Part shown: positions 8,843-34,978 of the stretch, in pieces
Layout: each line of letters starts with the position of its first letter
Numbering within the stretch: the stretch's first letter is position 1
Assembly (NCBI GenBank): GCA_964392615.1
Contig: CAYMRB010000001.1
Coordinates: 7,343-71,342, forward strand
DNA: 64,000 nt
Direction: 5' to 3'
Source of the DNA: an uncultured Planctomycetia bacterium
Lineage (GTDB): Bacteria; Planctomycetota; UBA8108
Translations under genes and position numbers: made by a program
Notes under the pieces: model-generated
Database searches by the model: none
What the model was told of the DNA's origin: nothing
The model's input: only the letters and a program-made list of their open reading frames with translations

Positions 8843-8918
8843 GGCGCCTCCGTCCGGCGGCGGGCGGTCCCCTCTCTCGACGCCAGTGTACGCGGAGACG
8901 ATCAGCGACCCAAGCGCG

Positions 8919-10103
8919 TCAGCGCGGCTTCTTCTTCCACGCCCGCACCCAATCGATCGAGTAAGTCGACGGCAGGTCGTCATCGCGCGGCAGGCCGAAC
9001 CACTTCGGCATCGTCTCGCTGTCGAAGTTCAACGTCAGCGGCTGGTGCCACGAACCGTTCGGACCGCGGCGCACGAGCTGGCCGTCGAAGTAGAACTTGA
9101 TCTCGTCCTCGTCCCACTCGAGCCCGTAGACGTGAAAGTCGTCGGCAAGGTCCTGCGGCGCGATGAACGCGCTGCCGCGACTCCAGTGGTTCTTCTTGGT
9201 CGGCGTGTGGAACACGTGCACGTTCATGTTCACCTTGCGCTCGAAGCCCTTCGCGCCGCCGCCGATCTCGAACACGTCGATCTCGGTCCACCACTCCTTG
9301 CAGGAGTCGTAGAACCAGAACGAGCTCGACCCCGCCGACCGCATCGGCCTGGCGCGCACTTCGAAGTAGCCGTACCGCACGCGCGTCTTGCTCTTCACGG
9401 CGGCGCAGGAGTACGAGTGGAAGCCCCGCTCCCGCAAGCGCTCCGGAATCGTGTCGCGGCGCATCGTGAGCTCGAGCCGGCCGTCTTTGACGCGAACGTT
9501 CTCGGGACGGAAGAGACCCGGCTGGCGCCCCTTCCACTGCGGGTTCGTCGGCCACCATCTCGCGCGATCGAGCTCGGTGCCGTTGAACTCGTCGCTGAGC
9601 GGCTCGTACCGCGCCCATCCGCCCGCGTTCTTCTGGTCGGACAGCGGGAACGCGTCCGTCGTGCGCACGGATGCGGGCGCTGCCGCGTCGGGCTTCACGT
9701 CGCGCCAGCCTTTGCGACCCGGCTCCGGCGTCGACGGCGGGCGATCGAAGATTCCCTCGAGCGCCGGAAACTCGGTGCGGCTGAACGACATCTTCTGCAG
9801 CATCGGCCGCCACACATTGTCAGCCTCGGTCGCGGGAAGGAAGGCGACCGCGTGCACGACACCGCCTCGGGGCAGCGCGAAGGGCCCGCGATAGCGGCGC
9901 GACGACTCCCAGGTCGCCGCCTTCGTCTGCAGCCAATAGCGGATCTCGACGCCGGGCTTCGACGTGAGCGAGACCTTGCCGAACGGATCCCGGCGGGCGG
10001 TCGGCGCTTCGGGGGCGTCGTCGGCACCTCGAGCGCCGGTCGACGTGATCGATAGACAGGCCACGAACGCGATGAGACGCAGGTGGGACGTGGACGTGGA
10101 CAT
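8919..10103 (-). CDS. secreted glycoside hydrolase family 16 (beta-glucanase/laminarinase-like)
   Basis: 394-aa ORF with a signal peptide (LIAFVACLSITSTGARG). It carries the GH16 catalytic signature E-I-D-V-F-E (WWTEIDVFEIGGG) and the fold is jelly-roll-like. The opposite-strand ORF 8667..10055 is compositionally junk. Confidence 0.8.
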   Translation of the reverse strand: MSTSTSHLRLIAFVACLSITSTGARGADDAPEAPTARRDPFGKVSLTSKPGVEIRYWLQTKAATWESSRRYRGPFALPRGGVVHAVAFLPATEADNVWRPMLQKMSFSRTEFPALEGIFDRPPSTPEPGRKGWRDVKPDAAAPASVRTTDAFPLSDQKNAGGWARYEPLSDEFNGTELDRARWWPTNPQWKGRQPGLFRPENVRVKDGRLELTMRRDTIPERLRERGFHSYSCAAVKSKTRVRYGYFEVRARPMRSAGSSSFWFYDSCKEWWTEIDVFEIGGGAKGFERKVNMNVHVFHTPTKKNHWSRGSAFIAPQDLADDFHVYGLEWDEDEIKFYFDGQLVRRGPNGSWHQPLTLNFDSETMPKWFGLPRDDDLPSTYSIDWVRAWKKKPR

Positions 10104-16776: not shown

Positions 16777-16797
16777 AGGTAACTCCGTACGCGGATA

Positions 16798-16826
16798 GGG
16801 TCGAGGTCGAGCCTGATCTCTCGACC
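16798..16826 (-). terminator. hairpin GGTCGAG-N14-CTCGACC between nfnB and the downstream beta-propeller/dihaem gene
   Basis: 7-bp stem with a 14-nt loop in the 97-bp gap; no U-tract. It may attenuate read-through from nfnAB into the downstream gene. Confidence 0.2.
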
Positions 16827-16873
16827 GTCGATCGTAACTGTTCGCCGCCTGACGCGCAGCAGGATCTTCGGCT

Positions 16874-18307
16874 CTACCAGCTCCTGTCGCCGAGCAGGTA
16901 CGCGTCAATTTCGGCGGCCGCGTCGCGCCCGGCCCCCATCGCGAGGATGACCGTGGCGCCGCCAGTGACGATGTCGCCTCCCGCGAACACGGCCTTCTTC
17001 GAGGTGCGGAGACTGTTCTCAGACACCTTGATGTATCCCCACTTGTTCGTATCGAGATCCGGTGTCGACGACTGTACGAGCGGATTAGCACCGGTGCCGA
17101 TCGCGATAATCGCCATATCGAGCGGCGCCTCGAATTCGTCGCCCTCGATCGGCTGCGGTCGTCGCCGTCCGGAGTCGTCCGGCTCGCCGAGCTCCATGCG
17201 CTGGCAACGCACCGCGCGCAGCCAGCCGTCCTCCGTGCCGAGGAACTCGAGCGGGCTCGCCAGCGGGATCAGCTCGATGCCCTCTTGCTTGGCGTGGTGG
17301 ATCTCCTCGAGTCGCGCCGGCATCTCGGCTTCGGTGCGGCGATAGATGATCGACGCCTTGGCCGCCCCGAGCCGCAGCCCGGTGCGGATCGCATCGAGCG
17401 CCGTGTTGCCGCCGCCGAACACCGCGACGTTCTTGCCGGCGCAGTCGTACGTCGGCTGGTCGTACTCGGGGAAGCGGTACGCCTTCATCAAGTTGACGCG
17501 CGTCAGGAACTCGTTGGCCGAGTAGACCCCGTTGAGATGCTCGCCGGGCACGTTGAGGAAATACGGCAGACCGGCGCCCGTCGCGACGAAGACTGCGTCG
17601 TAGCCCTCCTCGCCGAGCAGCTCGTCGACGGTGACCGTCTTGCCGATCACGACGTCGGTCTCGAACTCGACGCCCATCTTGCGCATATTGTCGACCTCGC
17701 GCCGCACGATGTCCTTCGGCAGCCGGAACTCCGGAATGCCGTAGACCAGCACGCCGCCGATCTCGTGGAGCGCCTCGAACACGCGCACGCCGTGGCCCTT
17801 CTGGATCAGGTCGCCGGCGGCGCTCAGTCCCGCCGGCCCGCTGCCGACGATCGCCACGCGCTTGCCGGTCGCCGGCGCGATTTCGGGCAGCCCGATCTGG
17901 CCGGTCTTGATCTCCCAATCGGCGACGAAGCGCTCGAGGTTGCCGATGGCGAGCGAGTCCTTCTTCTTCGCCAGGACGCAGGTGCCCTCGCACTGGTCCT
18001 CCTGCGGACAGACGCGGCCCGTGATCGCGGGAAGGACGTTGTCCTCGCGCACCTTGGCCGCCGCTGCGAGGTAGTCGCCCTGGTGGACGAGCTCGATGAA
18101 CTCCTTGACCTTGACGCCGACGGGACAGCCGTCGACACAGACGGGATTCTTGCACGAGAGGCAGCGCAGCGCCTCTTGGACAGCGGGGTCGACGTCGAGG
18201 CCGAGATTGACCTCCTCGAAGTTGCGGCAGCGTTCGGTCGACAGCTGCTCGGGCATCTTCTGCCTGGGGATCGCGAGGCGCTCTTTGGGCTTCAGCGGAT
18301 TCGTCAT
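16874..18307 (-). CDS. nfnB: NfnB-type NADPH-dependent FAD/FeS oxidoreductase (glutamate synthase small-subunit/GltD-like; SudA-like)
   Basis: 477 aa. Two N-terminal [4Fe-4S] motifs (CLSCKNPVCVDGCP, CPQEDQCEGTC) are followed by GltD-like FAD/NAD(P) folds (RVAIVGSGPAGLSAAGDL, NVAVFGGGNTALD). It sits 4 bp (ATGA overlap) behind the PyrK-like partner. Confidence 0.85.
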   Translation of the reverse strand: MTNPLKPKERLAIPRQKMPEQLSTERCRNFEEVNLGLDVDPAVQEALRCLSCKNPVCVDGCPVGVKVKEFIELVHQGDYLAAAAKVREDNVLPAITGRVCPQEDQCEGTCVLAKKKDSLAIGNLERFVADWEIKTGQIGLPEIAPATGKRVAIVGSGPAGLSAAGDLIQKGHGVRVFEALHEIGGVLVYGIPEFRLPKDIVRREVDNMRKMGVEFETDVVIGKTVTVDELLGEEGYDAVFVATGAGLPYFLNVPGEHLNGVYSANEFLTRVNLMKAYRFPEYDQPTYDCAGKNVAVFGGGNTALDAIRTGLRLGAAKASIIYRRTEAEMPARLEEIHHAKQEGIELIPLASPLEFLGTEDGWLRAVRCQRMELGEPDDSGRRRPQPIEGDEFEAPLDMAIIAIGTGANPLVQSSTPDLDTNKWGYIKVSENSLRTSKKAVFAGGDIVTGGATVILAMGAGRDAAAEIDAYLLGDRSW

Positions 18308-25422: not shown

Positions 25423-26607
25423 TCACTCGCTCTCCGGTTCCAGCGTCCGTATCAGGCAATCGAGGAACTCGCGGCGGTAGGAGTCGCGACGTAGGTCGGC
25501 CTCCTTCGCCTCGCGGGCGAGGCCGCGAACCGCGTCGAAACGCTGGGCCTGGATCAGGTGGCCGGTCCAGGTTCTCAGGAGGAGGTCGCAGTCCTGCCAC
25601 TGGCCGCGGGCGTACTCGGGGTGCAGCTTCGGGTCGTTGATCGCGTCGAAGGCATCCTTCGCGAGCTCGTCGCGGCCAGCACCGGGCAGCGCAGCGCGCA
25701 GCTCGCCGATCTTCATGGCCAGGCGGTCGGCCGGCGACAGGTCCGCGTCGGCCAGCGCGACGTAACCCGCCGGCGAGAGCGTGCGGCAGAACTGCCGACG
25801 CGCGCTCTGGAGCGCCTCGTCGGCCGCGCTCGTGGACGGGAGAGCTCGACCGCCGTCGATCCGCAGGTCCTCGAGCTCGTAGACGAGCCGCTTCTTCTGC
25901 GGGCGGCTGCTCAAGAACAGGAGATAGACGCCCGGCTCGAGGCTGTCAGCGCCCTCGAGCGGGAACGATAGACTCGGGGCGTAGGCGCGCCCTGCCTCGC
26001 TCGCCGCGTGCAGATGCCAGAATAGGTGCCCGTCGCGGATGCCGGCCTCCGCCTCGTAGGTCTCGCCCACGAGGAAATCGGGGTTCTCGTCGTACTGCGT
26101 ACTGCGAGACTCCCACGAATCGGTCTCGGCTCGCCGGTATCCGATGACAGCCGAGTGGAGATGGGCGAGGCTTCCTCCGTGCTTCACCAGAGAGAAGGAG
26201 AGCAGCGTTCCGTCCGGAGGCCACGGCGCCGGAGCGCCCGGTCCGGCCGGGATGAGGTACAGAGTCACCTGACTGTCGTAGTCCGCCTTGCAGACGCAGC
26301 CGCGCCAGGTCAGCCGGAACGCGGCGGGATCGTCGATCTCGACGCGGACGCTCAACGCGATCCCCGGATGGCACGAGGACAGCTCCACCTCCTGCTGCTC
26401 CGTCGAGAGCGAGTTCCCGCGAAGGCGCACGGCGAGAGGATGGTCGATCCGCAGAGGAAGCGGCGTCGACGCAGCACGGAACGTCGACGCGGGCCGTGGC
26501 GAGCTGCCCGTACGGGGCTCGCAAGCGACGAGCACCCCGATCAGGACGCCGAGGACTCCTAAGGCGAACGGTCGAATCCGGGGTGATGGGACGCGCTCAC
26601 TCTGCAT
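25423..26607 (-). CDS. hypothetical lipoprotein (signal peptide with lipobox LVAC)
   Basis: 394 aa with N-terminus MQSERVPSPRIRPFALGVLGVLIGVLVAC and balanced composition. It overlaps the upstream kinase gene by 11 bp, so it is probably the last gene of the sigma-kinase operon. I found no recognisable domain. Confidence 0.5.
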   Translation of the reverse strand: MQSERVPSPRIRPFALGVLGVLIGVLVACEPRTGSSPRPASTFRAASTPLPLRIDHPLAVRLRGNSLSTEQQEVELSSCHPGIALSVRVEIDDPAAFRLTWRGCVCKADYDSQVTLYLIPAGPGAPAPWPPDGTLLSFSLVKHGGSLAHLHSAVIGYRRAETDSWESRSTQYDENPDFLVGETYEAEAGIRDGHLFWHLHAASEAGRAYAPSLSFPLEGADSLEPGVYLLFLSSRPQKKRLVYELEDLRIDGGRALPSTSAADEALQSARRQFCRTLSPAGYVALADADLSPADRLAMKIGELRAALPGAGRDELAKDAFDAINDPKLHPEYARGQWQDCDLLLRTWTGHLIQAQRFDAVRGLAREAKEADLRRDSYRREFLDCLIRTLEPESE

Positions 26608-29509
26608 CGATGCCGTACACCCTCACCGCGTCGCCCACGACGACGAGCTCGTCCGACCCGTCGCCGTCGAGCTCACAGAAACACGCCTCTTGCACGACCC
26701 GGGCGCCGACCAGCGGCATGCGGGCGACCCGGCCATCGCGGAGGAACACGTGCACCTCGACCCAGGAGAGCTCGCTCGACGAGCCCACCGCCGGGTGCAC
26801 TGCCAGGCAAACCGCGCGCCCAGCCACTTGCCCGGATCGGGAGAAGGCGACGCGCGTTCCGGGGACGGGCGGCGCGAGGAAACTCAGTCGCGGAGCGCTC
26901 TCGCCAGTCCTCAACAGGTACGAGCCAGGCCGGGGGCCGCGGGGCGCGTCACGGCCGAAGACCCGCGGCTCGAAGGCGTCGTCCGCACTGGCGAGAAAGA
27001 CGCCGTCGGGCACGCCGTCGAGGTCGAAGTCGATCGCGCTCGCCGCCTGGACGAAGCCGAGCGGCCGCTCCCAGATCGGAGCGTAGCGGCCGAGCCACGG
27101 ATCCCGCTCGAGAATCACCGTCCGGTACGCCTCCCACTTGCCGTAGTGGACGAGGAGCCGGGGCGACCGGTCGCCAACGGTCCGCGGCAAGACGGCGATC
27201 GCGTCGACGTCCCAGCCGCCATCGCCGCTCGCATCCTCGTGTCCTCGACCCCACAGGTGGCGCGCCTCGAGCTTTGTCGCGTCCCCGGCAAGACGACGGA
27301 AGTGCCACAGGCTGGGGTCCGTGTGATAGTTGCCGAGCAAGAGGCCCGGGCGGGGCGCGTCGTCGAGCGCACCGGGCAGCGCGACCGCGACCATCGAGCT
27401 TCGGCGCGCGGTAGCTCCCTGGACGCCCGATAGCCTGTAGGCGACGTCGACCGCTCCGGAGACATCGACTCGCAGGATCGCGACGCGGTCGTTGGCGGCG
27501 CCGTTCGGCCCCGGCACGGCGCTGTCCTCGAGGTACAGCGCCCAGGCAGCGGGTGGAGTGTCGGGGGGCTCGTCACTCGCGGCGACCATCGTCGCGATGC
27601 CGGACGCGAAGTCCTCGGTGTCTCCGTTCTCCCGAAAGATGTTCCGTGGCAGCTCGATCGGCGTCAGCTCGACCGGCGCCAGGTCGTTCGCGCCGAGGGT
27701 CTTCCCGTGCTGTCGCCGCAGCGCCTGCGGGCTCGAGAGCCCAAGGCGGAACAGCTCGTTGTCGCGAAGCAGGCTGCCGATCGCGAGCAGCAGAGTCGAC
27801 GGCTGACGGGGCGGCACAGGGCACACCGCGTAGCACTGCGTTCTCTCCGGAAGCCGAAGCTCGATCGGTACGCCGAGCGCGTCCGACACGTCCAGGAGCG
27901 CGCGCGCCTTCTCCGCGCTGTCGCCGCGCCCGGCCGCCAGGTCGGCGAGAATCTCCCGTCCCCGCTGTCGTGCGGCGCCGTCGCCGCCGGGCGCCAGACA
28001 GGCGCGCATCTCGAGGAATCTCCAGGCGCCGTCCTCGTCGTCGCTCCGTCCGGCCTCGCGGAGCAGATCGCGAGCGTCGTCGTGGTCGCCGCGTAGGGAC
28101 GCGCTCCGCGCCAGGGCTCGCAGTACGCGCGAGCGCTGCGGCCCGCGCAGTTTGGCATGCAGGCGGGAGAGATCCTCGACGGTCGACCGCGCCGCCTTGT
28201 CGGGATCGTCCGCCCGGCGATCGAGCTCATGCGCGACGACCGCGAGATCGAGCTCCTGCTGGATCAACATCTGACGATAGCGGAAGGTCAACCACCCCGC
28301 GGTCGCGACGAGGACGACAACCGCGGTGGCGAGCGACGCGACGAGCATGCGGTGACGCGCCCGCCAGCGCACGAGTCGCATCAGCAGGCTCGGCGGCCGC
28401 GCCAGGATGGGCTCGCCGCTCAGGTGTCTGCGGATGTCCGCAGCGAGCTCGGCGGCCGAGCCGTAGCGCTCGGCGGGGTCCTTCTTCAGAGTCTTCGCGA
28501 GAACGAGGTCGACGTTGCCCCGCAGCTCGCGCCGATGCTCGCTCGGCCTGGCAGGCGTTTCGTCCCGGATGATCCGCGCGGCCTCGAGGATCGCCTTGCC
28601 GTCGAGCTCGTACGGCGGCCGACCGCAGAGGAGCTCGTAGCCGATGACGCCGAGGGCGTAGACATCCGATCGCGTGTCGATCGCTGCCGGGTCGCCGCTG
28701 GCCTGCTCGGGGCTCATGTAGGCGAGCGTGCCGATGAGCTGACCGGTGCGCGTGTGCATCGACGTCGCCTGCAGATCGGAGTTCGTCGCGCGCGCGACGC
28801 CGAAATCGAGGACCTTCGGCTGACCGTCGTCCTCGACGAGGATGTTGCCGGGCTTGAGATCGCGGTGGATCACCCCGCGCTGGTGCGCGTACTGCACCGC
28901 GTCGGCGACCGCCGCGAGCAGCTCGAGGATCCGCTGCGCTCCGAGACTCCACGTCCGGACGTACTCGTCGAGCGGTACGCCCTGGACGTACTCCATCGCG
29001 AAGAACGGCCGCGGCCCGGAGTCGGTCCCGACGGCGCCCGCCTCGTAGATCTGCGCGATGCCCGAGTGCTTCAGGAGACCGAGGACCTGCGCCTCGTACT
29101 TCAGCCGTTGGACGAGCTCGTCGGAGCCGGCGCCGGGGCGGACGAGCTTCAGGGCGACGACGCGCCCGAGCCTCTCCTGCTCGGCCTCGTAGACGACGCC
29201 CATGCCGCCCTCGCCGAGGACCGAGAGCACGCGGAAGCCGGCGATCCGGTCGCCGATGGCCGGGACGGAGGCGGCAAGCTCGGCCGGAGCTTCCGGCTCG
29301 GCCCCGATCAGATCGCCCCAAGTCGGCGGCGGCGCGCCGGCGAGCTCGCCGACGCGGCTTCCCAGCTCGAGGTGCTCCTCGACTTTGCGGCGCAACGCCG
29401 TGTTCTCGCAGCACGCGTCATTCAGAAACGCTGCGCGCTTGTCAGCAGGAAGCTCGCGCGCCGCCAGGAAGAGATCGACGAAGAAGTCGGAAGACTCGCC
29501 GGTCGCCAT
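26597..29509 (-). CDS. ECF-associated Ser/Thr protein kinase with a TM segment and a large extracytoplasmic C-terminal region
   Basis: The start is at the internal Met, MATGESSDFFVDLFLAARELPADKRAAFLNDACCENTALRRKVEEHLEL. This is the conserved N-terminal sigma-partner module seen in ECF-linked kinases. Hanks kinase motifs follow (VALKLV, HRDLKPGNILV, DFGVA, SPEQ), then a TM segment (MLVASLATAVVVLVATAGWLTF) and about 580 aa of extracellular sequence with D-x-D-G-D-G (FG-GAP/VCBS-like) motifs. The upstream 81 codons of the listed ORF are Arg-rich junk that read through the sigma gene. Confidence 0.9.
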   Translation of the reverse strand: MATGESSDFFVDLFLAARELPADKRAAFLNDACCENTALRRKVEEHLELGSRVGELAGAPPPTWGDLIGAEPEAPAELAASVPAIGDRIAGFRVLSVLGEGGMGVVYEAEQERLGRVVALKLVRPGAGSDELVQRLKYEAQVLGLLKHSGIAQIYEAGAVGTDSGPRPFFAMEYVQGVPLDEYVRTWSLGAQRILELLAAVADAVQYAHQRGVIHRDLKPGNILVEDDGQPKVLDFGVARATNSDLQATSMHTRTGQLIGTLAYMSPEQASGDPAAIDTRSDVYALGVIGYELLCGRPPYELDGKAILEAARIIRDETPARPSEHRRELRGNVDLVLAKTLKKDPAERYGSAAELAADIRRHLSGEPILARPPSLLMRLVRWRARHRMLVASLATAVVVLVATAGWLTFRYRQMLIQQELDLAVVAHELDRRADDPDKAARSTVEDLSRLHAKLRGPQRSRVLRALARSASLRGDHDDARDLLREAGRSDDEDGAWRFLEMRACLAPGGDGAARQRGREILADLAAGRGDSAEKARALLDVSDALGVPIELRLPERTQCYAVCPVPPRQPSTLLLAIGSLLRDNELFRLGLSSPQALRRQHGKTLGANDLAPVELTPIELPRNIFRENGDTEDFASGIATMVAASDEPPDTPPAAWALYLEDSAVPGPNGAANDRVAILRVDVSGAVDVAYRLSGVQGATARRSSMVAVALPGALDDAPRPGLLLGNYHTDPSLWHFRRLAGDATKLEARHLWGRGHEDASGDGGWDVDAIAVLPRTVGDRSPRLLVHYGKWEAYRTVILERDPWLGRYAPIWERPLGFVQAASAIDFDLDGVPDGVFLASADDAFEPRVFGRDAPRGPRPGSYLLRTGESAPRLSFLAPPVPGTRVAFSRSGQVAGRAVCLAVHPAVGSSSELSWVEVHVFLRDGRVARMPLVGARVVQEACFCELDGDGSDELVVVGDAVRVYGIDAE

Positions 29510-29514
29510 GTTCG

Positions 29515-30084
29515 TCACTGACCCGCGCGCCGGACGCGAGCCAGGAGGACCGCCAAGCCCGCCTCGAGGTCGCGCTGCACCGTCTTCGTCGAGACGTCGA
29601 GCTGCTCGGCAATCTCGCCGTGCTTCAGCCCGCCGAAGAACTTCAGCTCGATGATCTGGCCCAACCGCCGCGATCGTTCGCCGCCGCGTTCGAGCTCCGC
29701 GAGAGCCTGGCTCACCTCGTCGGGTTCCATCTCGAGTTCGTCGCGACGCCACCCCTTGTCGCGCAGCTCATCCCTGGCCCGCGCGAAGAATCGAAAGCGC
29801 ACCTTCCGGCGCTTGGCGTGATTGATGAGAATCTGCCGCATGCGCCGCACGGCGATGGCGAAGAATTGCCGCCGGTCCTGCCATTCGATCTCGTCGCTTC
29901 CGAAGAGACGCAGGTACGTCTCGTGGACGAGATCGCGGGGGCTCAGGGTGTGGCCATCTCGCTCGTTGCGAATCAGTCGACCGGCACGAGACAGAAGCTC
30001 CTCGTAGACGAGGGACACGGCCTGTTCCCTCGAGACGGAGTCTCCGGCCGCCGCCGCTCGCAGGAGTCGCGTGATCTCTCGCAT
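29515..30084 (-). CDS. ECF sigma-70 factor, TIGR02999 (Sig70_X6)-like, the type genomically paired with Ser/Thr kinases
   Basis: The N-terminus MREITRLLRAAAAGDSVSREQAVSLVYEELLSRA...GHTLSPRDLVHETYLRL matches the characteristic family opening (EITxLL...GD...LxxLVYxELRR...GHTLQ...LVHEAYLRL). The sigma-4 HTH is LKFFGGLKHGEIAEQLDVSTKTVQRDL. The stop lies 5 bp before the kinase start. Confidence 0.85.
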   Translation of the reverse strand: MREITRLLRAAAAGDSVSREQAVSLVYEELLSRAGRLIRNERDGHTLSPRDLVHETYLRLFGSDEIEWQDRRQFFAIAVRRMRQILINHAKRRKVRFRFFARARDELRDKGWRRDELEMEPDEVSQALAELERGGERSRRLGQIIELKFFGGLKHGEIAEQLDVSTKTVQRDLEAGLAVLLARVRRAGQ

Positions 30085-30116
30085 CGTCCGCGCTGCCCTC
30101 GGGGCCCTCATCTACA

Positions 30117-30145
30117 CCGGGGACCATTGTCGGAAAAACTTGTCC
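30117..30145 (-). promoter_or_regulatory. candidate sigma70-like promoter of the ECF sigma gene (-35 TTGGAA, 17-nt spacer, -10 GACAAT) inside an AT-rich island containing the imperfect palindrome GGAAAAAC-N6-GTTTTCC
   Basis: Read on the minus strand the sequence is TTGGAAAACGGACAAGTTTTTCCGACAAT, lying 33-61 nt upstream of the sigma ATG. It is the only AT-rich stretch in the 168-bp divergent intergenic region. Two GAGGG boxes sit just before the ATG. Identified by eye only. Confidence 0.3.
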
Positions 30146-30252
30146 GTTTTCCAAGGCCTCGGTTGCCACCCCGAGCGAGGAACGGGCCCGGACCTCGCTT
30201 GTGGACTTCATGTCGATCAGTTGAACCCTGTCTCTCAGGAGTTGCCTTCACC

Positions 30253-33200
30253 ATGCATACGGTGAACCGCCCGCACCGCCGCGGTGCATTCGTGCTGCTA
30301 TATGCAGCTGTCATGACCCTGGTGTTCCCGGCCCTGCGCGCCGAAGTGTCAGTCGTGGACCTCGTTCAGGAGACACCGAATCGCGCCGTGCGGGACGTCG
30401 GCTTCTTCGAGCACGAGGGTGTCAGGTACTACTGGCAGGCCTCCGGAAAAGTCGGCGCCACCGTCTTCACGTGGAGCGAGGCTGCCGGGGCCTACGAGGA
30501 GCACCAGGATCTGCTCGCGGGCGCGGAGGTTTCCGACCTCGAACTCTTCGTCATCGACGGCGAGCTCTACATCGCATTGGCCCACGAGGCGAACGGCTCG
30601 AACACCGTCATGCCGTCGCACATCCTCCGGCTGGATCCCGTGACCGGGATCTTCGTCTCGATCCAGACCATCACGACGATGCACGCGACGCGCTGGGCGC
30701 ACTTCGAGATCGCGGGCGAGCACTTCCTCGCGGTCGCGAATGCGGTGGACGGTTCGTCATATGGAGTGATGTCGAGGGTCTATCGCTGGGACGGCGTCAC
30801 GGAGCAATTCGTCCTCCACCAGGAGATTCCCACCCAGACCGCCTCCGACTGGGAAGCCTTCCGCATCGGCAGTCGGTCCTTCCTCGCCGTTGCGAATGCG
30901 GGAATGGGGCCGCGTGGCGGTCCCGTCGTCTACGACGTCGACTCGGTCGTCTATGAGTGGAATCCGTCAGCCGGTTCGGGAGGGCTCTTCGAGGAGTATC
31001 AGCGGATCGCCACGCACGCGGGAAAGGACTGGGAACACCTCGAGCTCGACGGAGTTCCCCACCTCGCCCTGACCAACCTGGCGACCGGCGCGACCGGCTC
31101 GGCTGACTACAACGTCGACTCCAGGCTCTACCGTTGGGACGGCGACGCTCTGCCGGCAGGCGAGTTCGTCGAGATTCAGTCCTTCCCGACCCACGGGGGG
31201 CTGCGCGCTCACGCCTTCTCCGTCGGCAACGAGCGGTATCTCGCGATTGCGAACACCTACGACGGCTCGAGCTCGTACCAGGACACCGTTCTCTATCGCT
31301 GGAACGGCTACGAGTTCATCGAGGCCGAGAGGATCGCGATGGGGTCGACCCGAGGCCTCGCCACAACGCTTCTCGACGGCCGCACGCTCCTCGCACTCGG
31401 GCGATACCACACCGGCGCGAGCTACGACGGCATGCAGCCGATCTACGCGGTGCGGCAGGTGGACGAGAAGATCGTCTTCCAGCACCAGGACACCGGCGGC
31501 AATTGGGACATCTGGATCATGAACCCGGATGGCAGCGACCTGACGCGTCTGACCGACGACCCGGCGGTCGAGGAACACCCGATGATCTCGCCCGACGGGA
31601 AGACGATCGTATTCGGTCGGCGCAACGGTACGTATACGCCCCAGATTTGGACCATGGACATCGACGGAGGCAATCAGACGCAGCTGACGAACGAGTCCAC
31701 GTACGCCTACAACCCGGTCTGGAGCCCCGACGGCAAGACGGTCTACTACAGCATCAACAACTTCTACCCGCACGGTCTCATGGCGATCGCCCCCGACGGG
31801 TCGAATCACCGCGTGATTCACGCGACGGCGGGTGGCACGTATCCGATCGTCAGCCCCGACGGCAGGTACGTCCTGCACGGTTCGGTGCCGAGCTCGAACC
31901 CGAACAGCTACGACATGATCATCACGCCGGTCGACGGCGGGCCGCAGATCAACCTCAGCGCGCTGACCGGGCTTTCCGGCTACGAGCGCCAGGGATGCAA
32001 GTTCGCGTGGGGGCACGACGACATCATCCTGTTCGCCGGTCACGAGCCGTCGTGGGCCGGGTACGATTTCGACATCTACTGGGTGAAGGCCGACGGCAGC
32101 GCGTGGGGCACCATTCGCGATGACGCAGCGGGATCGTCGTATCCCTGCTGGTCGCCGGATGAGCAGCGTATGGTCTTCAACTCGTTCTCGGGCTCGACGA
32201 GCACCGAGGAGATCTACGTCATGAACCGCGACGGCACGGGGCTCTACCGGCTGACGAACCGGCCCGGCCGGGACAGCTACCCGCACTGGGGCAAGGCGGT
32301 GCGTACCTCGACCGACACGGTGCCGCCCGTCGTCGAGATCGTCTTCCCCGCGCCGGAGACGCTGCTTCCCGGGACTCAGGTGAACGTGATCGTGAACATC
32401 GTGGATGACAGTGCGACGACGATCACGTGTTCCCACGCGGGGCTCGGCGGAACGCTTCCCGCAGGCGGGGGCGAGCTCAGCGGCACGATCACGCTCGTCG
32501 AGGGAGCAAACGTCATCACGGTCAACGCGGAGGACACGGGCGGCCTCGTCGGCGGGACGAGCATCACGGTGTACGTCGACACGACGGCGCCGGGCGCCAT
32601 TGTTCTCTCGCCGGTCGACGGCGCCGCAACCGGCCAGTCTCCGGCAACGATCAGCGTCGAGGTCTCCGATGTGAACGATCTCGTTGTCGACATCGGCGGC
32701 ACCATCGTTTCGGTGCCGGCCGGGACCACCGTTGTCAGCGTGGACGTCCCTCTCGCCGAGGGCTCGAACGAGATCCCGATGACGGTCACGGACGCGGCCG
32801 GCAACTCGACGAGTCTCGTGCACACGCTGGTGCTCGACACGCAGGCGCCGATCATCGGGCCCGACACGCCGCAAGACGGTGACGTCTTCGGACCGGGCGA
32901 GTCGCCCATCGCGGTCGTGATGACCATCGACGACGACACGGCCGTCGACTACACGGTGTCGCCGTCCGGCACCTCCGGCAGCTTCCCGAGCGGCAGCGGC
33001 ACGACCGTCGACGCCGTGGACCTCGTCGAGGGCTGGAACGTCATCACCATCACGGCCACCGACGCCGCGGGCAACACGAGCCAGGCCTTCGTCACGGTGA
33101 TCTTCGACACGACGGCTTCGAACATCCTGACCGTTTCGCCGGCTGACGACGACCCGCTGCGGGACGTGATCGACTGGCACGTCGAGGCCGACGACCCGTC

Positions 33201-34308
33201 GCCGGGATCGGGCCTCGACCGCGTCGAGCTCTTCGTCGACGGCGTGCTCCATGCGACGCTCACCACCGCCCCGTTCGAGATCGCTTTCGACACGACCCTC
33301 CTCGTCGACGGACTCCACGTGCTCGAGGCCAAGGCCGTTGACGGCGTGGGCAACGAGTCGACCTCGGTCGTTTCGGTACTGGTCGACAACACGGCCCCAC
33401 AGGTCTGGATTCCGTTGCCTCTGGCCGGCGCCTACCTCGCGGGCACCTTCGCGCTCGAGGCGGAGTTCTTCGACGAGGGCGCGGGCGTCGCGTCGCTGGA
33501 GATGTCCGTGGCTGGTCTGTCCCCGACCGGAGACGGTTCGGCGACGTACGATCCGCCGCTGGCCACGGGGATCGCGACCGGCGAGGAGGACTCCACTCGC
33601 TGGCCGGACGGGCCGCTCAGTTTCTCGGTGGCGGTCGTCGATCTCGCCGGAAACACGGCGTCTGCGAACGTCATCGTCCAGATCGACAACGCCGCGCCCG
33701 TCGGCTGTATCGCCGAGCCCGCTTCGGGCAGCTCGGTCGCCGGGATGATCGACCTCAGGGCCGAGGTCGACGATCCGAACCTCGCGCAGGTCCAGATCGT
33801 GGTCGACGGAATCGTCGTTGCCGAGTCGACGACCTCGCCGCTGGTCGTTCCCTTCGACACGACGTCGCGGCTCGACGGCGCGATGGAGATCGAGGTGCTC
33901 GCGACCGACCTCGCCGGCAACACGACCTCGTGCACATCGAGCGTGACGGTCGACAACCTCGCGGTACGCTTCGTTCCGCGCACGCTGAACCTCAAGAGCA
34001 AGGGGAAGGGCTGTGCGCACGTCGACATCACCGGAGTGAACGTTGCGCTCCTGGATCCTCTGGAGGGCGCCGGCCTCGAGCTGTGGATTCCCGGTGGCAG
34101 CCCCGTGGCAGCGCGGTTCGACTGCGGGCCGCAGGGGGGCGACCCCGGAGAGCGCAAGGTCAGCTTCTCCCGGCAAGACGTGATCGCGTCGATCCGCGCG
34201 GGGATCGCGGCCGGCGAGATCTCTGGTGACACGGTGACCCTCGAGATGGTCGCGAGCGGCGGGGACGACGTGCTCGGCACCGACCGGATCCGCATTCGAG
34301 GGAACTGA
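30253..34308 (+). CDS. large secreted multi-domain protein: seven EPTP/EAR-type repeats (beta-propeller), a PD40/TolB-like beta-propeller and several Ig-like (Big/cadherin-like) domains
   Basis: The start is at the internal Met MHTVNRPHRRGAFVLLYAAVMTLVFPALRAEV. The listed upstream 210 codons are antisense junk that overlap the sigma gene. Seven units have the pattern F..Q.I....A.DWE.F.I....FLAVAN.........S.VYRW.G (approx. 30330-31450). PD40 repeats are SPDGKTIVF, WSPDGKTVYY and SPDGRYV (approx. 31480-32250). At least five Ig-like modules carry V.TDAAGN(S/T) signatures (approx. 32300-34300). Confidence 0.8.
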   Translation: MHTVNRPHRRGAFVLLYAAVMTLVFPALRAEVSVVDLVQETPNRAVRDVGFFEHEGVRYYWQASGKVGATVFTWSEAAGAYEEHQDLLAGAEVSDLELFVIDGELYIALAHEANGSNTVMPSHILRLDPVTGIFVSIQTITTMHATRWAHFEIAGEHFLAVANAVDGSSYGVMSRVYRWDGVTEQFVLHQEIPTQTASDWEAFRIGSRSFLAVANAGMGPRGGPVVYDVDSVVYEWNPSAGSGGLFEEYQRIATHAGKDWEHLELDGVPHLALTNLATGATGSADYNVDSRLYRWDGDALPAGEFVEIQSFPTHGGLRAHAFSVGNERYLAIANTYDGSSSYQDTVLYRWNGYEFIEAERIAMGSTRGLATTLLDGRTLLALGRYHTGASYDGMQPIYAVRQVDEKIVFQHQDTGGNWDIWIMNPDGSDLTRLTDDPAVEEHPMISPDGKTIVFGRRNGTYTPQIWTMDIDGGNQTQLTNESTYAYNPVWSPDGKTVYYSINNFYPHGLMAIAPDGSNHRVIHATAGGTYPIVSPDGRYVLHGSVPSSNPNSYDMIITPVDGGPQINLSALTGLSGYERQGCKFAWGHDDIILFAGHEPSWAGYDFDIYWVKADGSAWGTIRDDAAGSSYPCWSPDEQRMVFNSFSGSTSTEEIYVMNRDGTGLYRLTNRPGRDSYPHWGKAVRTSTDTVPPVVEIVFPAPETLLPGTQVNVIVNIVDDSATTITCSHAGLGGTLPAGGGELSGTITLVEGANVITVNAEDTGGLVGGTSITVYVDTTAPGAIVLSPVDGAATGQSPATISVEVSDVNDLVVDIGGTIVSVPAGTTVVSVDVPLAEGSNEIPMTVTDAAGNSTSLVHTLVLDTQAPIIGPDTPQDGDVFGPGESPIAVVMTIDDDTAVDYTVSPSGTSGSFPSGSGTTVDAVDLVEGWNVITITATDAAGNTSQAFVTVIFDTTASNILTVSPADDDPLRDVIDWHVEADDPSPGSGLDRVELFVDGVLHATLTTAPFEIAFDTTLLVDGLHVLEAKAVDGVGNESTSVVSVLVDNTAPQVWIPLPLAGAYLAGTFALEAEFFDEGAGVASLEMSVAGLSPTGDGSATYDPPLATGIATGEEDSTRWPDGPLSFSVAVVDLAGNTASANVIVQIDNAAPVGCIAEPASGSSVAGMIDLRAEVDDPNLAQVQIVVDGIVVAESTTSPLVVPFDTTSRLDGAMEIEVLATDLAGNTTSCTSSVTVDNLAVRFVPRTLNLKSKGKGCAHVDITGVNVALLDPLEGAGLELWIPGGSPVAARFDCGPQGGDPGERKVSFSRQDVIASIRAGIAAGEISGDTVTLEMVASGGDDVLGTDRIRIRGN

Positions 34309-34309
34309 C

Positions 34310-34978
34310 ATGCGTTTCTTCATCAACGGCTCGAAGACGGGCGCAACAGCGATGATCGCAGCGTGCGGGCTGGCCACCCTCGCCGTGGGAGGATGGCTGG
34401 CGCTCGCGTCCGGTGATCCTGCGAAGAAGACCGATCCGGTCACGGTGGCGCAGGCCGTCGCTGCGACCGATCTCCGAGGCGGCGGCGGTCCCACCTGCGA
34501 AGACCTCGCCTGGGACGGCATGGACCGGAGCGCCATGCAGGCCGTCCTCGAACGGACGCGGTCGGCCACGCACGCGCAGCGCGCCGAGCTCGAGGAGCTC
34601 GCCATGACCGCGCCCCGAGCCGGCGTGCGTGCGCAGGCTCTCCGCTCTCTTGGTCGACTCGGACTCGTGCGTGCGGACTCCGAAGTGGCTGCGCTGCTGA
34701 ACGATCCGAATCCACGCGTGCGTCAAGAGGTCGTGACGGCCCTGGGGCGTGGGGGCGACCCGGCGACCGTCTCCGCTCTGAAGCCGCTTCTCTCCGCTAA
34801 CGCTGATCCGACGCTGCGAGCACTGGCGATCCAGGCTCTCGGCCGGATCGGTACGAACGAGGCGGATCGGCTCGTGCGGGGAGTGCTGGAGGACTCGAGC
34901 TCGTCGCGTGTCGATCGGGCGTTCGCCCGGGGCGCACTCGCAGAGCTCACCTCGGCCAGCGCTAGCGCAGGCAGCTGA
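34310..34978 (+). CDS. HEAT-repeat (PBS-lyase HEAT-like) protein with an N-terminal hydrophobic anchor
   Basis: The ATG lies 1 nt after the upstream stop. Repeats are ...LNDPNPRVRQEVVTALGRGGDPATVSALKPLLSANADPTLRALAIQALGRIG..., which is the E-Z type HEAT signature. It is co-directional with the giant gene and probably co-transcribed. Confidence 0.7.
   Translation: MRFFINGSKTGATAMIAACGLATLAVGGWLALASGDPAKKTDPVTVAQAVAATDLRGGGGPTCEDLAWDGMDRSAMQAVLERTRSATHAQRAELEELAMTAPRAGVRAQALRSLGRLGLVRADSEVAALLNDPNPRVRQEVVTALGRGGDPATVSALKPLLSANADPTLRALAIQALGRIGTNEADRLVRGVLEDSSSSRVDRAFARGALAELTSASASAGS

What the first reader, a model, noticed from the sequence alone, without database searches (positions are those of the whole stretch)
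30330..31450. Seven EPTP/EAR-type repeats (known from metazoan LGI1/ADGRV1) occur in a bacterial secreted protein, fused to a PD40 propeller
Seven consecutive ~45-50 aa units fit F..Q.[IL]....A.DWE.F.I.....FLAVAN...........S.VYRW.G. This is the spacing and motif of the epitempin/EAR seven-bladed propeller, which is essentially described from animal proteins. Examples are FVLHQEIPTQTASDWEAFRIGSRSFLAVANAGMGP...VYEWN and FVEIQSFPTHGGLRAHAFSVGNERYLAIANTYDGSSSYQDTVLYRWNG. Finding it upstream of a TolB-like propeller and Ig-like domains in a bacterium is unusual and may inform the origin of the EAR domain.
Basis: partly seen in the sequence, partly recalled or inferred. Interest (0 to 1): 0.6.

Follow-up and report, generated by a model that had tools for sequence, protein, structure and literature searches.

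The report
Bacterial EPTP/EAR seven-bladed propeller protein
A secreted protein of an uncultured bacterium starts with a genuine seven-bladed propeller of the type known from the human epilepsy protein LGI1, but thousands of mostly bacterial relatives already sit unnamed in sequence databases, so it is a correct but not exceptional find.

Summary
Window 30253..34308 (+) encodes a 1351-aa protein. Residues 35-402 (DNA 30355-31458) are seven tandem 45-60 aa EPTP/EAR repeats.

- **Domain identity:** Pfam EPTP scores 164 bits against a cutoff of 21, and no other propeller family matches this segment. LGI1 is the only solved structure found by sequence. An AlphaFold model (pLDDT 95) has 28 strands and matches the LGI1 EPTP domain (TM 0.77/0.87), far ahead of Kelch or WD40.
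- **Rest of the protein:** a Sec signal peptide, a PD40/TolB-like propeller, about 550 aa of bacterial Ig-like domains, and an unclassified C-terminal domain.
- **Origin:** the flanking genes are bacterial and codon GC3 matches the neighbours, so this is neither contamination nor a recent transfer from an animal.
- **"Unusual in bacteria" is only partly right:** a profile search found 4182 cluster representatives. Most top hits look bacterial (lipoproteins, T9SS, dockerin or PKD partners). Named carriers include Krumholzibacteriota, Moraniibacteriota, Streptomyces, Kutzneria and Amycolatopsis, and IMG already uses the name "EPTP domain-containing protein".
- **Literature:** the searchable papers give only one passing mention of a prokaryotic (archaeal) EPTP domain.
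- **Most likely role:** a non-enzymatic extracellular binding head. This is inferred, not shown.

It is a divergent new member of a known domain family, in a lineage-specific architecture.

The parts
30253..34308 (+). Whole gene: 1351-aa secreted multi-domain protein plus stop codon
   Evidence: ORF and translation. An identical 1351-aa gene call is on ENA contig SUTE22-1 scaffold_22611. The same protein is held by NCBI and ENA on a 99.5-kb contig, and its 90% cluster has two more members, from JGI and ENA assemblies. AGGAG lies 11 nt upstream of the ATG.
30253..30342 (+). Sec-type signal peptide, aa 1-30 (MHTVNRPHRRG / AFVLLYAAVMTLVFPAL / RA|EV)
   Evidence: Basic n-region followed by the only strongly hydrophobic segment in the protein (Kyte-Doolittle maximum at aa 10-30) and an A-x-A-like cleavage site. 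This is by inspection; no signal-peptide predictor was available.
30355..30489 (+). EPTP repeat 1 (aa 35-79), degenerate
   Evidence: In register in the repeat alignment. Covered by the full-propeller profile and by strands of the AF2 model. Not individually significant.
30490..30651 (+). EPTP repeat 2 (aa 80-133), carries D-L-E at the LGI1 Ca2+-ligand position
   Evidence: Single-blade HMM iE 2.7e-8. Repeat alignment. Motif mapping.
30652..30807 (+). EPTP repeat 3 (aa 134-185)
   Evidence: Single-blade HMM iE 1.9e-21.
30808..30987 (+). EPTP repeat 4 (aa 186-245), D-W-E motif, long C-D loop
   Evidence: Best Pfam EPTP stretch, aa 185-237. Single-blade HMM iE 2.5e-17.
30988..31164 (+). EPTP repeat 5 (aa 246-304), D-W-E motif
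   Evidence: Single-blade HMM iE 5.1e-16.
31165..31308 (+). EPTP repeat 6 (aa 305-352)
   Evidence: Single-blade HMM iE 5.7e-16.
31309..31458 (+). EPTP repeat 7 (aa 353-402), degenerate
   Evidence: In register in the repeat alignment. Four further strands in the AF2 model. Not individually significant.
31459..32307 (+). PD40 / TolB-like / Tricorn-like beta-propeller (aa 403-685)
   Evidence: Pfam PD40 E 2.8e-20 with 3 stretches, and DUF5050. NCBIfam TolB TIGR02800 E 6e-32 but 111 bits against a cutoff of 343. Precomputed Tricorn_N and Tricorn_2nd hits.
32308..33951 (+). Stalk of bacterial Ig-like beta-sandwich domains (aa 686-1233)
   Evidence: Pfam Glucodextran_B E 3e-20 (4 stretches), Big_13 (5 stretches), Big_7 (3 stretches), Big_3_2 and Big_3_3. 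NCBIfam OmpL47-type barrel.
33952..34305 (+). C-terminal domain of unknown type (aa 1234-1351); no transmembrane segment or known sorting signal
   Evidence: No Pfam hit at E<=0.1. No NCBIfam hit. Single-sequence AF2 failed with pLDDT 33.
29515..30111 (-). Divergently transcribed ECF sigma factor (198 aa); possible regulator, association unproven
   Evidence: Pfam Sigma70_ECF PF07638 E 4e-31. The sigma2.2 region reads SPRD rather than the acidic DAED motif. Context from PMC8999054.
26597..29509 (-). Ser/Thr protein kinase (970 aa from ATG 29509) in an operon with the sigma factor
   Evidence: Pfam Pkinase E 1e-43. The start lies 6 nt after the sigma stop.
34310..34978 (+). HEAT-repeat protein (222 aa) starting 1 nt after the stop codon; probably co-transcribed
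   Evidence: Pfam HEAT_2 E 1.4e-17. Same arrangement on the independent contig L001. Junction sequence TGA C ATG.

Best explanation
Residues 35-402 form a genuine seven-bladed EPTP/EAR-type beta-propeller, homologous to those of animal TSPEAR and LGI1-4. It sits at the mature N-terminus of a Sec-exported bacterial protein. It is followed by a second, PD40/TolB-like propeller, a stalk of bacterial Ig-like domains and an unclassified C-terminal domain. The protein is native to an uncultured diderm bacterium and belongs to a large, mostly bacterial family of extracellular EPTP-propeller proteins with very variable partner domains. The most likely mechanism is non-enzymatic. The propeller would be a rigid binding head, probably stabilised by Ca2+ held in the central channel by the D-x-E motifs of adjacent blades 4 and 5, as in LGI1. 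Together with the PD40 propeller it would be held away from the cell on the Ig-like stalk to bind a protein or glycan ligand. Expression may depend on the divergent ECF sigma / Ser-Thr kinase pair. Shown here: domain identity, fold, repeat number, architecture, bacterial context and family size. Inferred: export beyond the cytoplasm, Ca2+ binding, ligand binding and regulation.
For: Domain identity:
- Pfam EPTP scores 164-177 bits against a cutoff of 21 and is the only family on this segment.
- LGI1 is the only PDB sequence match, at E 1.7e-7 with the single sequence and E 5.5e-31 with a family profile.
- The AF2 model has pLDDT 94.9, pTM 0.93 and 28 strands.
- Foldseek ranks seven LGI1 EPTP chains first (E 2e-18, TM 0.77/0.87, rmsd 2.6 A). 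The next fold, Kelch, is at E 5e-9 with TM about 0.5.
- A blade HMM built only from bacterial proteins finds 5 blades here and all 7 blades of bat TSPEAR.

Native bacterial gene:
- Neighbours are an ECF sigma factor, a Ser/Thr kinase, AcrB/HlyD/TolC, bacterial alpha-2-macroglobulin, a sulfatase and DUF6807.
- GC3 of the EPTP segment is 0.855, against a mean of 0.856 for 26 window genes.
- The identical protein is on two differently named contigs (ENA 6.4 kb; NCBI/ENA 99.5 kb), and its 90% cluster holds two more members from JGI and ENA.

Extracellular binding role:
- Signal peptide and no other hydrophobic segment.
- Ig-like domains.
- Family partners are PKD, DUF11, Por_Secre_tail, dockerin, TSP_3, LamG_3, Peptidase_M28 and PEP-CTERM. 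Homologues include lipoproteins (L002).
- LGI1's EPTP domain binds ADAM22 through a pocket on the propeller (PMC5906670).

Ca2+ site:
- LGI1 ligands D334/E336 and D381/E383 align with the family 'DWE' position. The window protein has DLE in repeat 2 and DWE in repeats 4 and 5.
Against: - No ligand, localisation or expression data exist.
- Export is inferred from inspection of the N-terminus only.
- The protein has no recognised outer-membrane or cell-wall anchor or secretion-system tag, so it may stay in the periplasm.
- The Ca2+ site is a sequence-motif argument. I had no model coordinates to check the geometry, and only 3 of 7 blades keep D-x-E.
- The association with the ECF sigma / kinase pair is not seen at the other EPTP loci I inspected (L002, L004, L006).
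- Actinobacterial family members lack signal peptides, so the fold is not tied to an extracellular role.
- The phylum of the host was not resolved.
Confidence: 0.7

Rival explanations
1. The repeats are a generic beta-propeller (FG-GAP, YVTN, Kelch or WD40-like) that only superficially resembles EPTP.
For: All propeller families share a four-stranded blade. LGI1's EPTP domain is itself described as WD40-related (PMC5906670). Kelch domains appear lower in the Foldseek list. Repeats 1 and 7 are not individually recognisable.
Against: No other propeller family is reported on aa 1-406 even at E<=10. LGI1 is the only PDB hit by sequence. LGI1 leads Kelch by nine orders of magnitude in E-value and by 0.27-0.37 in TM-score. 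All 99 sequence homologues carry PF03736.
Confidence: 0.02
2. The EPTP segment is eukaryotic DNA: assembly contamination, a chimera, or a very recent transfer from an animal host.
For: The domain is described in the literature only from animals, and as a 'eukaryote-like protein' domain in a sponge symbiont. GC content of window 30-32 kb is slightly lower (0.644) than that of the flanks.
Against: The segment lies in one uninterrupted ORF with bacterial PD40 and Ig-like domains and a bacterial signal peptide. The identical protein is on two differently named contigs, and two further cluster members at 90% identity or more come from JGI and ENA assemblies. GC3 is identical to the neighbours. Identity to any animal protein is only about 30%. 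In a rough NJ tree the window protein lies among bacterial groups, outside the animal clade.
Confidence: 0.02
3. The protein stays in the periplasm and works in envelope maintenance, like TolB or Tricorn-type PD40 proteins. The EPTP propeller would then be a second docking platform for envelope proteins or peptides rather than a surface adhesin.
For: The best NCBIfam match for the second propeller is TolB (E 6e-32). No outer-membrane anchor or secretion tag was found. The PD40 relatives are 'Tol biopolymer transport system component' proteins, many of them fused to kinases as periplasmic sensor domains. An adjacent ECF sigma factor is typical of envelope-stress regulons.
Against: The TolB equivalog cutoff is missed by a wide margin (111 against 343 bits) and the TolB N-terminal domain is absent. 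About 550 aa of Ig-like stalk domains are typical of surface or secreted proteins. EPTP relatives carry T9SS, dockerin and PEP-CTERM tags.
Confidence: 0.2
4. The propeller is an enzyme, for example a lactonase- or hydrolase-type propeller, or a substrate gate for an attached peptidase, as in prolyl oligopeptidase or DPP-IV.
For: One family member gives a Pfam Lactonase hit just above its gathering score (23.5 against 21.7 bits, P0058). Some relatives are fused to Peptidase_M28. There are weak DPPIV_N and Peptidase_S9_N matches in the PD40 part.
Against: This protein has no catalytic domain. The conserved family residues are structural (FLAVAN, S-x-IY-W) or match the LGI1 Ca2+ ligands. No characterised EPTP protein is an enzyme.
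Confidence: 0.05

Closest known systems
LGI1 EPTP domain (human; PDB 5Y2Z, 5Y31, 9KZC)
   Same: Seven EPTP repeats forming a seven-bladed, four-strand-per-blade propeller. It is the only solved structure hit by sequence and the top structural match (TM 0.77/0.87). Both proteins are secreted. The D-x-E motif that supplies LGI1's Ca2+ ligands sits at the same repeat position.
   Different: Only 17-18% identity in the structural alignment. There is no LRR domain. The Cys260-Cys286 disulfide is absent, because aa 30-406 contain no cysteine. The known ligands ADAM22/23 are animal proteins, and conservation of the binding pocket was not tested.
[quoted passage not shown]
   Same: The closest animal relatives by sequence, at 28-36% identity and E down to 5e-60. 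A bacterial single-blade HMM recovers all seven TSPEAR blades.
   Different: TSPEAR has an N-terminal TSPN/Laminin-G domain and nothing after the propeller. The window protein has the propeller first, then PD40 and Ig-like domains. TSPEAR forms a separate clade in the rough tree.
Uncharacterised bacterial EPTP-propeller proteins, e.g. the Krumholzibacteriota lipoprotein (L002), 'Proteobacteria bacterium' MAG.37 (P0002, L004), the Moraniibacteriota 'EPTP domain-containing protein' (P0109) and the Streptomyces, Kutzneria and Amycolatopsis proteins (P0088, P0060, P0086)
   Same: The same domain in bacteria, 31-40% identical to the window protein. Most have signal peptides or lipoboxes and extracellular partner domains.
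   Different: The window copy is much more degenerate: 164 bits against 294-327 bits on the Pfam model, and 27% against 51-55% identity between blades. Its EPTP + PD40 + Ig architecture has no full-length orthologue outside its own 90% cluster. Only one other EPTP+PD40 fusion (P0264) was seen.
TolB / PD40 propeller proteins (Tol-Pal system)
   Same: The second propeller matches PD40 repeats and the TolB C-terminal propeller.
   Different: It scores far below the TolB equivalog cutoff, has no TolB N-terminal domain and is not in a tol-pal operon.

Membership tests
EPTP/EAR repeat propeller (Pfam PF03736; LGI1-4, TSPEAR, ADGRV1) | Sequence match to the EPTP repeat model above the curated threshold | tested here: met
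   164.3 bits (whole protein) and 176.6 bits (N-terminal 406 aa) against a cutoff of 21, with 5 separate stretches.
EPTP/EAR repeat propeller (Pfam PF03736; LGI1-4, TSPEAR, ADGRV1) | Seven tandem repeats of about 45-50 aa | tested here: met
   Seven units in register over aa 35-402. Five are individually significant. The two terminal units are supported by the full-length profile and the model.
EPTP/EAR repeat propeller (Pfam PF03736; LGI1-4, TSPEAR, ADGRV1) | Seven-bladed beta-propeller with four antiparallel strands per blade (PMC5906670) | tested here: met
   Predicted, not experimental. AF2 gives pLDDT 94.9, pTM 0.93 and 28 strands. Foldseek's top hits are LGI1 EPTP chains with TM 0.77/0.87 and rmsd 2.6 A.
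EPTP/EAR repeat propeller (Pfam PF03736; LGI1-4, TSPEAR, ADGRV1) | Ring closure by the N-terminal strand joining the last three strands in blade 7 (PMC5906670) | not testable with these tools
   The tool returned secondary structure but no coordinates. 28 strands, with one strand (aa 35-44) ahead of the first full repeat core, fit this arrangement but do not prove it.
EPTP/EAR repeat propeller (Pfam PF03736; LGI1-4, TSPEAR, ADGRV1) | Central-channel Ca2+ site made by D-x-E motifs of two adjacent blades (LGI1 D334/E336 and D381/E383) | tested here: inconclusive
   The profile alignment places the LGI1 ligands on the family 'DWE' position. The window protein has DWE in the adjacent repeats 4 and 5 and DLE in repeat 2. 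Geometry and metal binding were not testable.
EPTP/EAR repeat propeller (Pfam PF03736; LGI1-4, TSPEAR, ADGRV1) | Extracellular or secreted location | tested here: inconclusive
   The N-terminal signal peptide was judged by inspection and a hydropathy plot, and there is no other hydrophobic segment. No predictor or experiment was available.
LGI / TSPEAR / ADGRV1 orthologue groups (animal EPTP proteins) | Characteristic partner domains (LRR; TSPN/Laminin G; Calx-beta plus 7TM) | tested here: not met
   The partners here are PD40 and bacterial Ig-like domains. No LRR, Laminin_G, Calx-beta or 7TM was found. The protein is not an orthologue of any animal EPTP protein.
LGI / TSPEAR / ADGRV1 orthologue groups (animal EPTP proteins) | LGI1 blade 1-2 disulfide (Cys260-Cys286) and the ADAM22-binding hydrophobic pocket | tested here: not met
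   There is no cysteine anywhere in aa 30-406, so the disulfide is absent. The pocket residues were not mapped (not tested).
TolB (NCBIfam TIGR02800 equivalog) | Full-length match above the equivalog cutoff, including the TolB N-terminal domain | tested here: not met
   111 bits against a cutoff of 343. Only profile positions 255-387 of the propeller part match.
PD40 repeat propeller (Pfam PF07676) | Repeated PD40 motifs above the threshold | tested here: met
   58.6 to 72.2 bits against a cutoff of 20.9, with 3 stretches, in aa 403-685.
Other propeller repeat families (FG-GAP, Kelch, WD40, YVTN/NHL-type) | A Pfam match in aa 30-402 | tested here: not met
   No such family is listed for the N-terminal 406 aa at E<=10 (protein 2). 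Kelch structures are distant second-tier Foldseek hits with TM about 0.5.

The most novel reading that the evidence does not exclude
The animal EAR/EPTP propeller (LGI1-4, TSPEAR, ADGRV1) may descend from an old and diverse bacterial family of extracellular Ca2+-stabilised propellers, acquired by an early eukaryote or animal ancestor, rather than being an animal invention. On this reading, proteins such as this one, and especially the more regular bacterial lipoprotein forms, are the ancestral type. They could also serve as easily expressed models for the LGI1 fold, given that the LGI1 EPTP domain alone expressed too poorly for crystallisation (PMC5906670). In support: the sampled top family hits are mostly bacterial-looking, with many different architectures. 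Animal TSPEAR forms a single clade in a rough tree. A blade model built only from bacterial proteins recovers every TSPEAR blade. The direction of transfer, the rooting and the position of the protist members (Symbiodinium 'Tspear', an EukProt transcript, the L005 group) are unresolved.
Probability: 0.3. Interest if true: 0.55.

Novelty: new member of a known kind. Interest (0 to 1): 0.3.

Why it matters
The EPTP/EAR domain is studied almost only because of human disease: LGI1 in epilepsy and limbic encephalitis, TSPEAR in ectodermal dysplasia and ADGRV1 in Usher syndrome. The papers I could search treat it as an animal domain. This gene is a securely identified bacterial example, and following it up shows that the family is large and mostly bacterial-looking. 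That matters in three modest ways.

- It corrects the assumption that the domain is restricted to animals. Labelling prokaryotic copies as 'eukaryote-like proteins' may therefore be misleading.
- It supplies many simple one-domain bacterial propellers that could serve as tractable structural and biophysical models of the fold and its Ca2+ site.
- It opens the question of where the animal domain came from.

The window gene itself is a divergent member with a lineage-specific architecture and no known function, so its individual importance is limited.

Tried and rejected
- **Genome-wide taxonomic survey.** The third used very narrow peptide patterns and returned only 3 loci, so there is no systematic phylum count.
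- **Host organism.** A conserved glutamate-synthase small-subunit gene gave near-equal best named hits in a Planctomycetes MAG (75%), Vicinamibacteria (74%) and Verrucomicrobiae (73%), so the phylum is unresolved. Gene content looks PVC/Planctomycetota-like, but that is only an impression.
- **C-terminal 118-aa domain.** No Pfam or NCBIfam hit, and single-sequence AF2 failed with pLDDT 33.
- **Promoter and terminator scan around the gene.** No sigma-70-type promoter, and only one terminator-like site, inside the gene and no more than the shuffled controls give.
- **Phylogeny.** I made only an unbootstrapped, midpoint-rooted NJ tree. Blade-register slippage in highly regular repeats makes whole-propeller trees unreliable, so I draw no conclusion on direction of transfer.
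- **Other copies in the window.** A six-frame scan found no second EPTP locus.
- **Rejected ideas.** Generic propeller, eukaryotic contamination and recent transfer from an animal are all rejected; see the rival explanations.
Full report
**What is there.** The finding lies inside one long + strand ORF. The mechanical ORF runs from 29620 to 34308. The real start is ATG 30253. It has an AGGAG 11 nt upstream, the encoded signal peptide begins at once, and any longer version would overlap the sigma-factor gene on the other strand. An independent ENA assembly carries exactly this 1351-aa gene call. The same protein is also on a 99.5-kb NCBI/ENA contig, and its 90% cluster holds two more members, from JGI and ENA assemblies. 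The fused architecture is therefore not an assembly artefact.

**Checking the observation.** Cutting the N-terminal region at the F-x-x-x-Q starts gives seven units: aa 35-79, 80-133, 134-185, 186-245, 246-304, 305-352 and 353-402.
- Pfam EPTP (PF03736) scores 164 bits (E 6e-49) on the whole protein and 177 bits on the first 406 aa, against a cutoff of 21. On that segment it is the only family reported even at E<=10.
- Pfam finds five separate stretches. A single-blade HMM that I built only from the blades of two other bacterial proteins also finds five, repeats 2-6, with iE from 3e-8 to 2e-21.
- Repeats 1 and 7 are degenerate. They are covered by a full-propeller profile (envelope aa 30-403) and by the structure model.
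- A six-frame scan finds no other EPTP locus in the window.

**Fold.** I made an AlphaFold2 model of aa 30-406 with a 57-sequence alignment. It has mean pLDDT 94.9, pTM 0.93 and 28 beta-strands, that is seven four-stranded blades. Foldseek against the PDB ranks seven LGI1 EPTP chains first, with E 2e-18 to 3e-17, TM 0.75-0.77 on the query and 0.87 on the isolated EPTP domain, and rmsd 2.5-3.0 A. The next fold class is designed and natural Kelch propellers, at E 5e-9 with TM about 0.5. By sequence, LGI1 is the only solved protein matched, at E 1.7e-7 with the single sequence and E 5.5e-31 with the family profile.

**Comparison with LGI1's defining features.** The LGI1 structure paper (PMC5906670) lists these features:
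- seven blades of four strands;
- ring closure by the N-terminal strand joining blade 7;
- a Cys260-Cys286 disulfide;
- a Ca2+ ion in the central channel, bound by Asp334, Glu336 and Asp381, with Glu383 contributing through a water molecule.

In the profile alignment, LGI1 'NDIETF' and 'TDVEYL' fall on the family's 'DWE-x-F' position. My residue count from the printed alignment reproduces the paper's numbering. The window protein has DWE in the adjacent repeats 4 and 5 and DLE in repeat 2, and the motif is lost in repeats 3, 6 and 7. An LGI1-like Ca2+ site between blades 4 and 5 is therefore plausible but unproven. The disulfide is absent, since aa 30-406 contain no cysteine. Ring closure could not be checked because no coordinates were returned.

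**The rest of the protein.**
- **aa 1-30:** a typical Sec signal peptide by inspection, and the only strongly hydrophobic stretch in the protein.
- **aa 403-685:** matches PD40 repeats (E 3e-20), DUF5050 and the propeller part of TolB. The TolB match is 111 bits against a cutoff of 343, so this is a PD40 propeller but not TolB.
- **aa 686-1233:** matches several bacterial Ig-like families, namely Glucodextran_B, Big_13, Big_7, Big_3_2, Big_3_3 and OmpL47-type.
- **aa 1234-1351:** matches nothing, and a single-sequence AF2 run failed with pLDDT 33.

No membrane anchor or known sorting tag was found.

**Genomic setting.** The neighbours are clearly bacterial and point to a diderm cell.
- A divergent ECF sigma factor (PF07638) sits upstream, followed 6 nt later by a 970-aa Ser/Thr kinase.
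- A HEAT-repeat gene starts 1 nt after the stop codon.
- Further out are TolC/HlyD/AcrB, a 2056-aa alpha-2-macroglobulin, a GH16, a sulfatase, DUF6807, and large dockerin-, FG-GAP- and beta-helix-containing proteins.
- GC3 of the EPTP segment is 0.855, equal to the mean of 26 window genes (0.856, sd 0.03). There is no compositional sign of recent acquisition.
- The host phylum is not resolved. A conserved glutamate-synthase subunit is 73-75% identical to proteins from a Planctomycetes MAG, Vicinamibacteria and Verrucomicrobiae alike.

ECF sigma factors encoded next to Ser/Thr kinases are thought to be activated by phosphorylation, and the ECF43 group lacks the acidic DAED motif in region 2.2 (PMC8999054). 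Here that position reads SPRD. Control of the divergently transcribed EPTP gene by this pair is possible. However, it is not supported by conserved synteny at the other EPTP loci I inspected.

- The first homology search returned 99 proteins, all carrying PF03736. About half are animal TSPEAR proteins, at 28-36% identity and E down to 5e-60.
- The rest include a 'Proteobacteria bacterium' MAG protein, proteins from Kutzneria, Amycolatopsis and Streptomyces, and many metagenomic proteins with bacterial signal peptides or lipoboxes.
- A profile search of 1.84 billion cluster representatives found 4182 proteins at E<=1e-3 and 1013 at E<=1e-30. Some are up to 5.8 kaa long and contain several tandem propellers.
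- Of the 88 top hits no longer than 800 aa, all 88 match PF03736. Their partner domains are PKD, DUF11, the T9SS sorting domain, dockerin, TSP_3, LamG_3, Peptidase_M28, Calx-beta and PEP-CTERM. Only two have the Laminin_G_2 domain typical of TSPEAR.
- Named carriers include a Krumholzibacteriota MAG, whose 383-aa lipoprotein has 7 of 7 EPTP stretches and scores 298 bits. Another is a Moraniibacteriota MAG protein that IMG already names 'EPTP domain-containing protein'.
- Some non-animal eukaryotic entries also exist: 'Tspear' in Symbiodinium, an EukProt transcript, and a group on gene-poor, eukaryote-like contigs.

The searchable literature treats the domain as an animal one. The only prokaryotic mention I found is a single line on a sponge-symbiont thaumarchaeon, where it is listed as a 'eukaryote-like' domain.

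**Where this copy sits in the family.** It is a divergent member.
- **Pfam score:** 164 bits, against 294-327 bits for other bacterial proteins.
- **Identity between its own blades:** 27%, against 51-55% in regular bacterial members, 35% in bat TSPEAR and 68% in the Symbiodinium protein.
- **Orthologues:** none at full length outside its own 90% cluster. Only one other EPTP+PD40 fusion (P0264, in a bacterial context) turned up among 409 hits.
- **Tree position:** in a rough, unbootstrapped NJ tree it sits on a long branch among bacterial groups, and animal TSPEAR proteins form their own clade. Because the repeats are so regular that alignments slip by whole blades, I do not infer a direction of transfer.

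**Likely mechanism.** I commit to a non-enzymatic binding role. After Sec export, the two N-terminal propellers act as ligand-binding heads carried on a stalk of Ig-like domains. The EPTP propeller is stabilised by Ca2+ at the DWE motifs of blades 4 and 5. I put the probability of this role at about 0.6, and that of the domain identity at 0.95 or more. The support is indirect:
- every characterised EPTP protein is an extracellular protein-interaction module;
- there is no catalytic domain;
- the bacterial family overwhelmingly carries secretion signals and surface-protein partner domains.

The main rival, at about 0.2, is a periplasmic envelope-associated role suggested by the TolB-like propeller, the lack of a surface anchor and the adjacent ECF sigma factor. 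An enzymatic role is unlikely, at about 0.05.

**Verdict.** The observation and the domain call are right. The 'unusual in bacteria' framing is only partly right, because databases already hold thousands of such proteins, even though papers do not discuss them. I class this as a new, divergent member of a known domain family in a lineage-specific architecture, with interest 0.3. The more interesting question concerns the family as a whole: whether the animal EAR domain has a bacterial origin. That question remains open.

Noticed in passing
window 26597-30111 (- strand): An ECF sigma factor (PF07638) is followed 6 nt later by a 970-aa Ser/Thr kinase. Sigma region 2.2 reads SPRD instead of the acidic DAED motif, as described for phosphorylation-activated ECF sigma factors. 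The roughly 500-aa C-terminal part of the kinase has no Pfam match but contains DGDG/VCBS-like motifs that suggest a propeller-type sensor domain.
   Followed up: partly
window 34310-34978 (+): A HEAT_2-repeat protein (222 aa) with a hydrophobic N-terminus starts 1 nt after the EPTP gene's stop codon. The same arrangement is on the independent contig L001. It is probably co-transcribed; its function is unknown.
   Followed up: partly
window 33952-34305 (+), aa 1234-1351 of the protein: A C-terminal domain of about 118 aa (begins DNLAVRFVPRTLNLKSKGKG...) has no Pfam or NCBIfam match, and single-sequence AlphaFold failed. It could be an unrecognised sorting or anchoring domain.
   Followed up: partly
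P0088, P0060, P0086, P0063 and relatives (Streptomyces, Kutzneria, Amycolatopsis): Actinobacterial EPTP propellers are about 365-aa stand-alone proteins that start directly at repeat 1 with no signal peptide, so they are probably cytoplasmic. The Streptomyces cluster has 55 member sequences. This is a different setting from every other EPTP protein known.
   Followed up: no
P0100 (3096 aa), P0101 (1666 aa), P0112 (5766 aa); Giant bacterial-looking proteins contain several tandem EPTP propellers; my profile gives 8 overlapping domain hits in P0100. The blades are so regular that profile alignments slip by whole blades, which suggests recent blade amplification or concerted evolution.
   Followed up: partly
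L005 8001-9101 (P0019 group; also P0040, P0045, P0058 on 0.3-1.3 Mb ENA contigs): A large cluster of 310-370-aa single-domain EPTP proteins lies on long contigs that have almost no prokaryotic gene calls around them. They are probably from an unidentified eukaryote. Together with 'Tspear' in Symbiodinium (P0263) and an EukProt transcript (P0028), this suggests the domain is also present in non-animal eukaryotes.
   Followed up: partly
window 2813-8983 (- strand): A 2056-aa bacterial alpha-2-macroglobulin (A2M, bait region, MG2 and bMG10 domains) with additional Big_5 Ig-like domains.
   Followed up: no
window 14206-17091 (- strand): A 961-aa protein with a hydrazine-synthase alpha-subunit middle domain (PF18582, E 8e-23), next to genes for a glutamate-synthase small-subunit-like protein and an Fe-S protein. 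The PD40 region of the EPTP protein also weakly matches NCBIfam hydrazine_alpha (E 1.6e-8).
   Followed up: no
window 42050-63999 (+ strand): A run of very large secreted-type proteins: 1197 aa with nine CarboxypepD_reg stretches, 993 aa with FG-GAP repeats, 1004 aa ending in a dockerin, and an open-ended protein of more than 2240 aa with beta-helix and TSP_3 domains that runs off the window. The region is rich in extracellular proteins.
   Followed up: no
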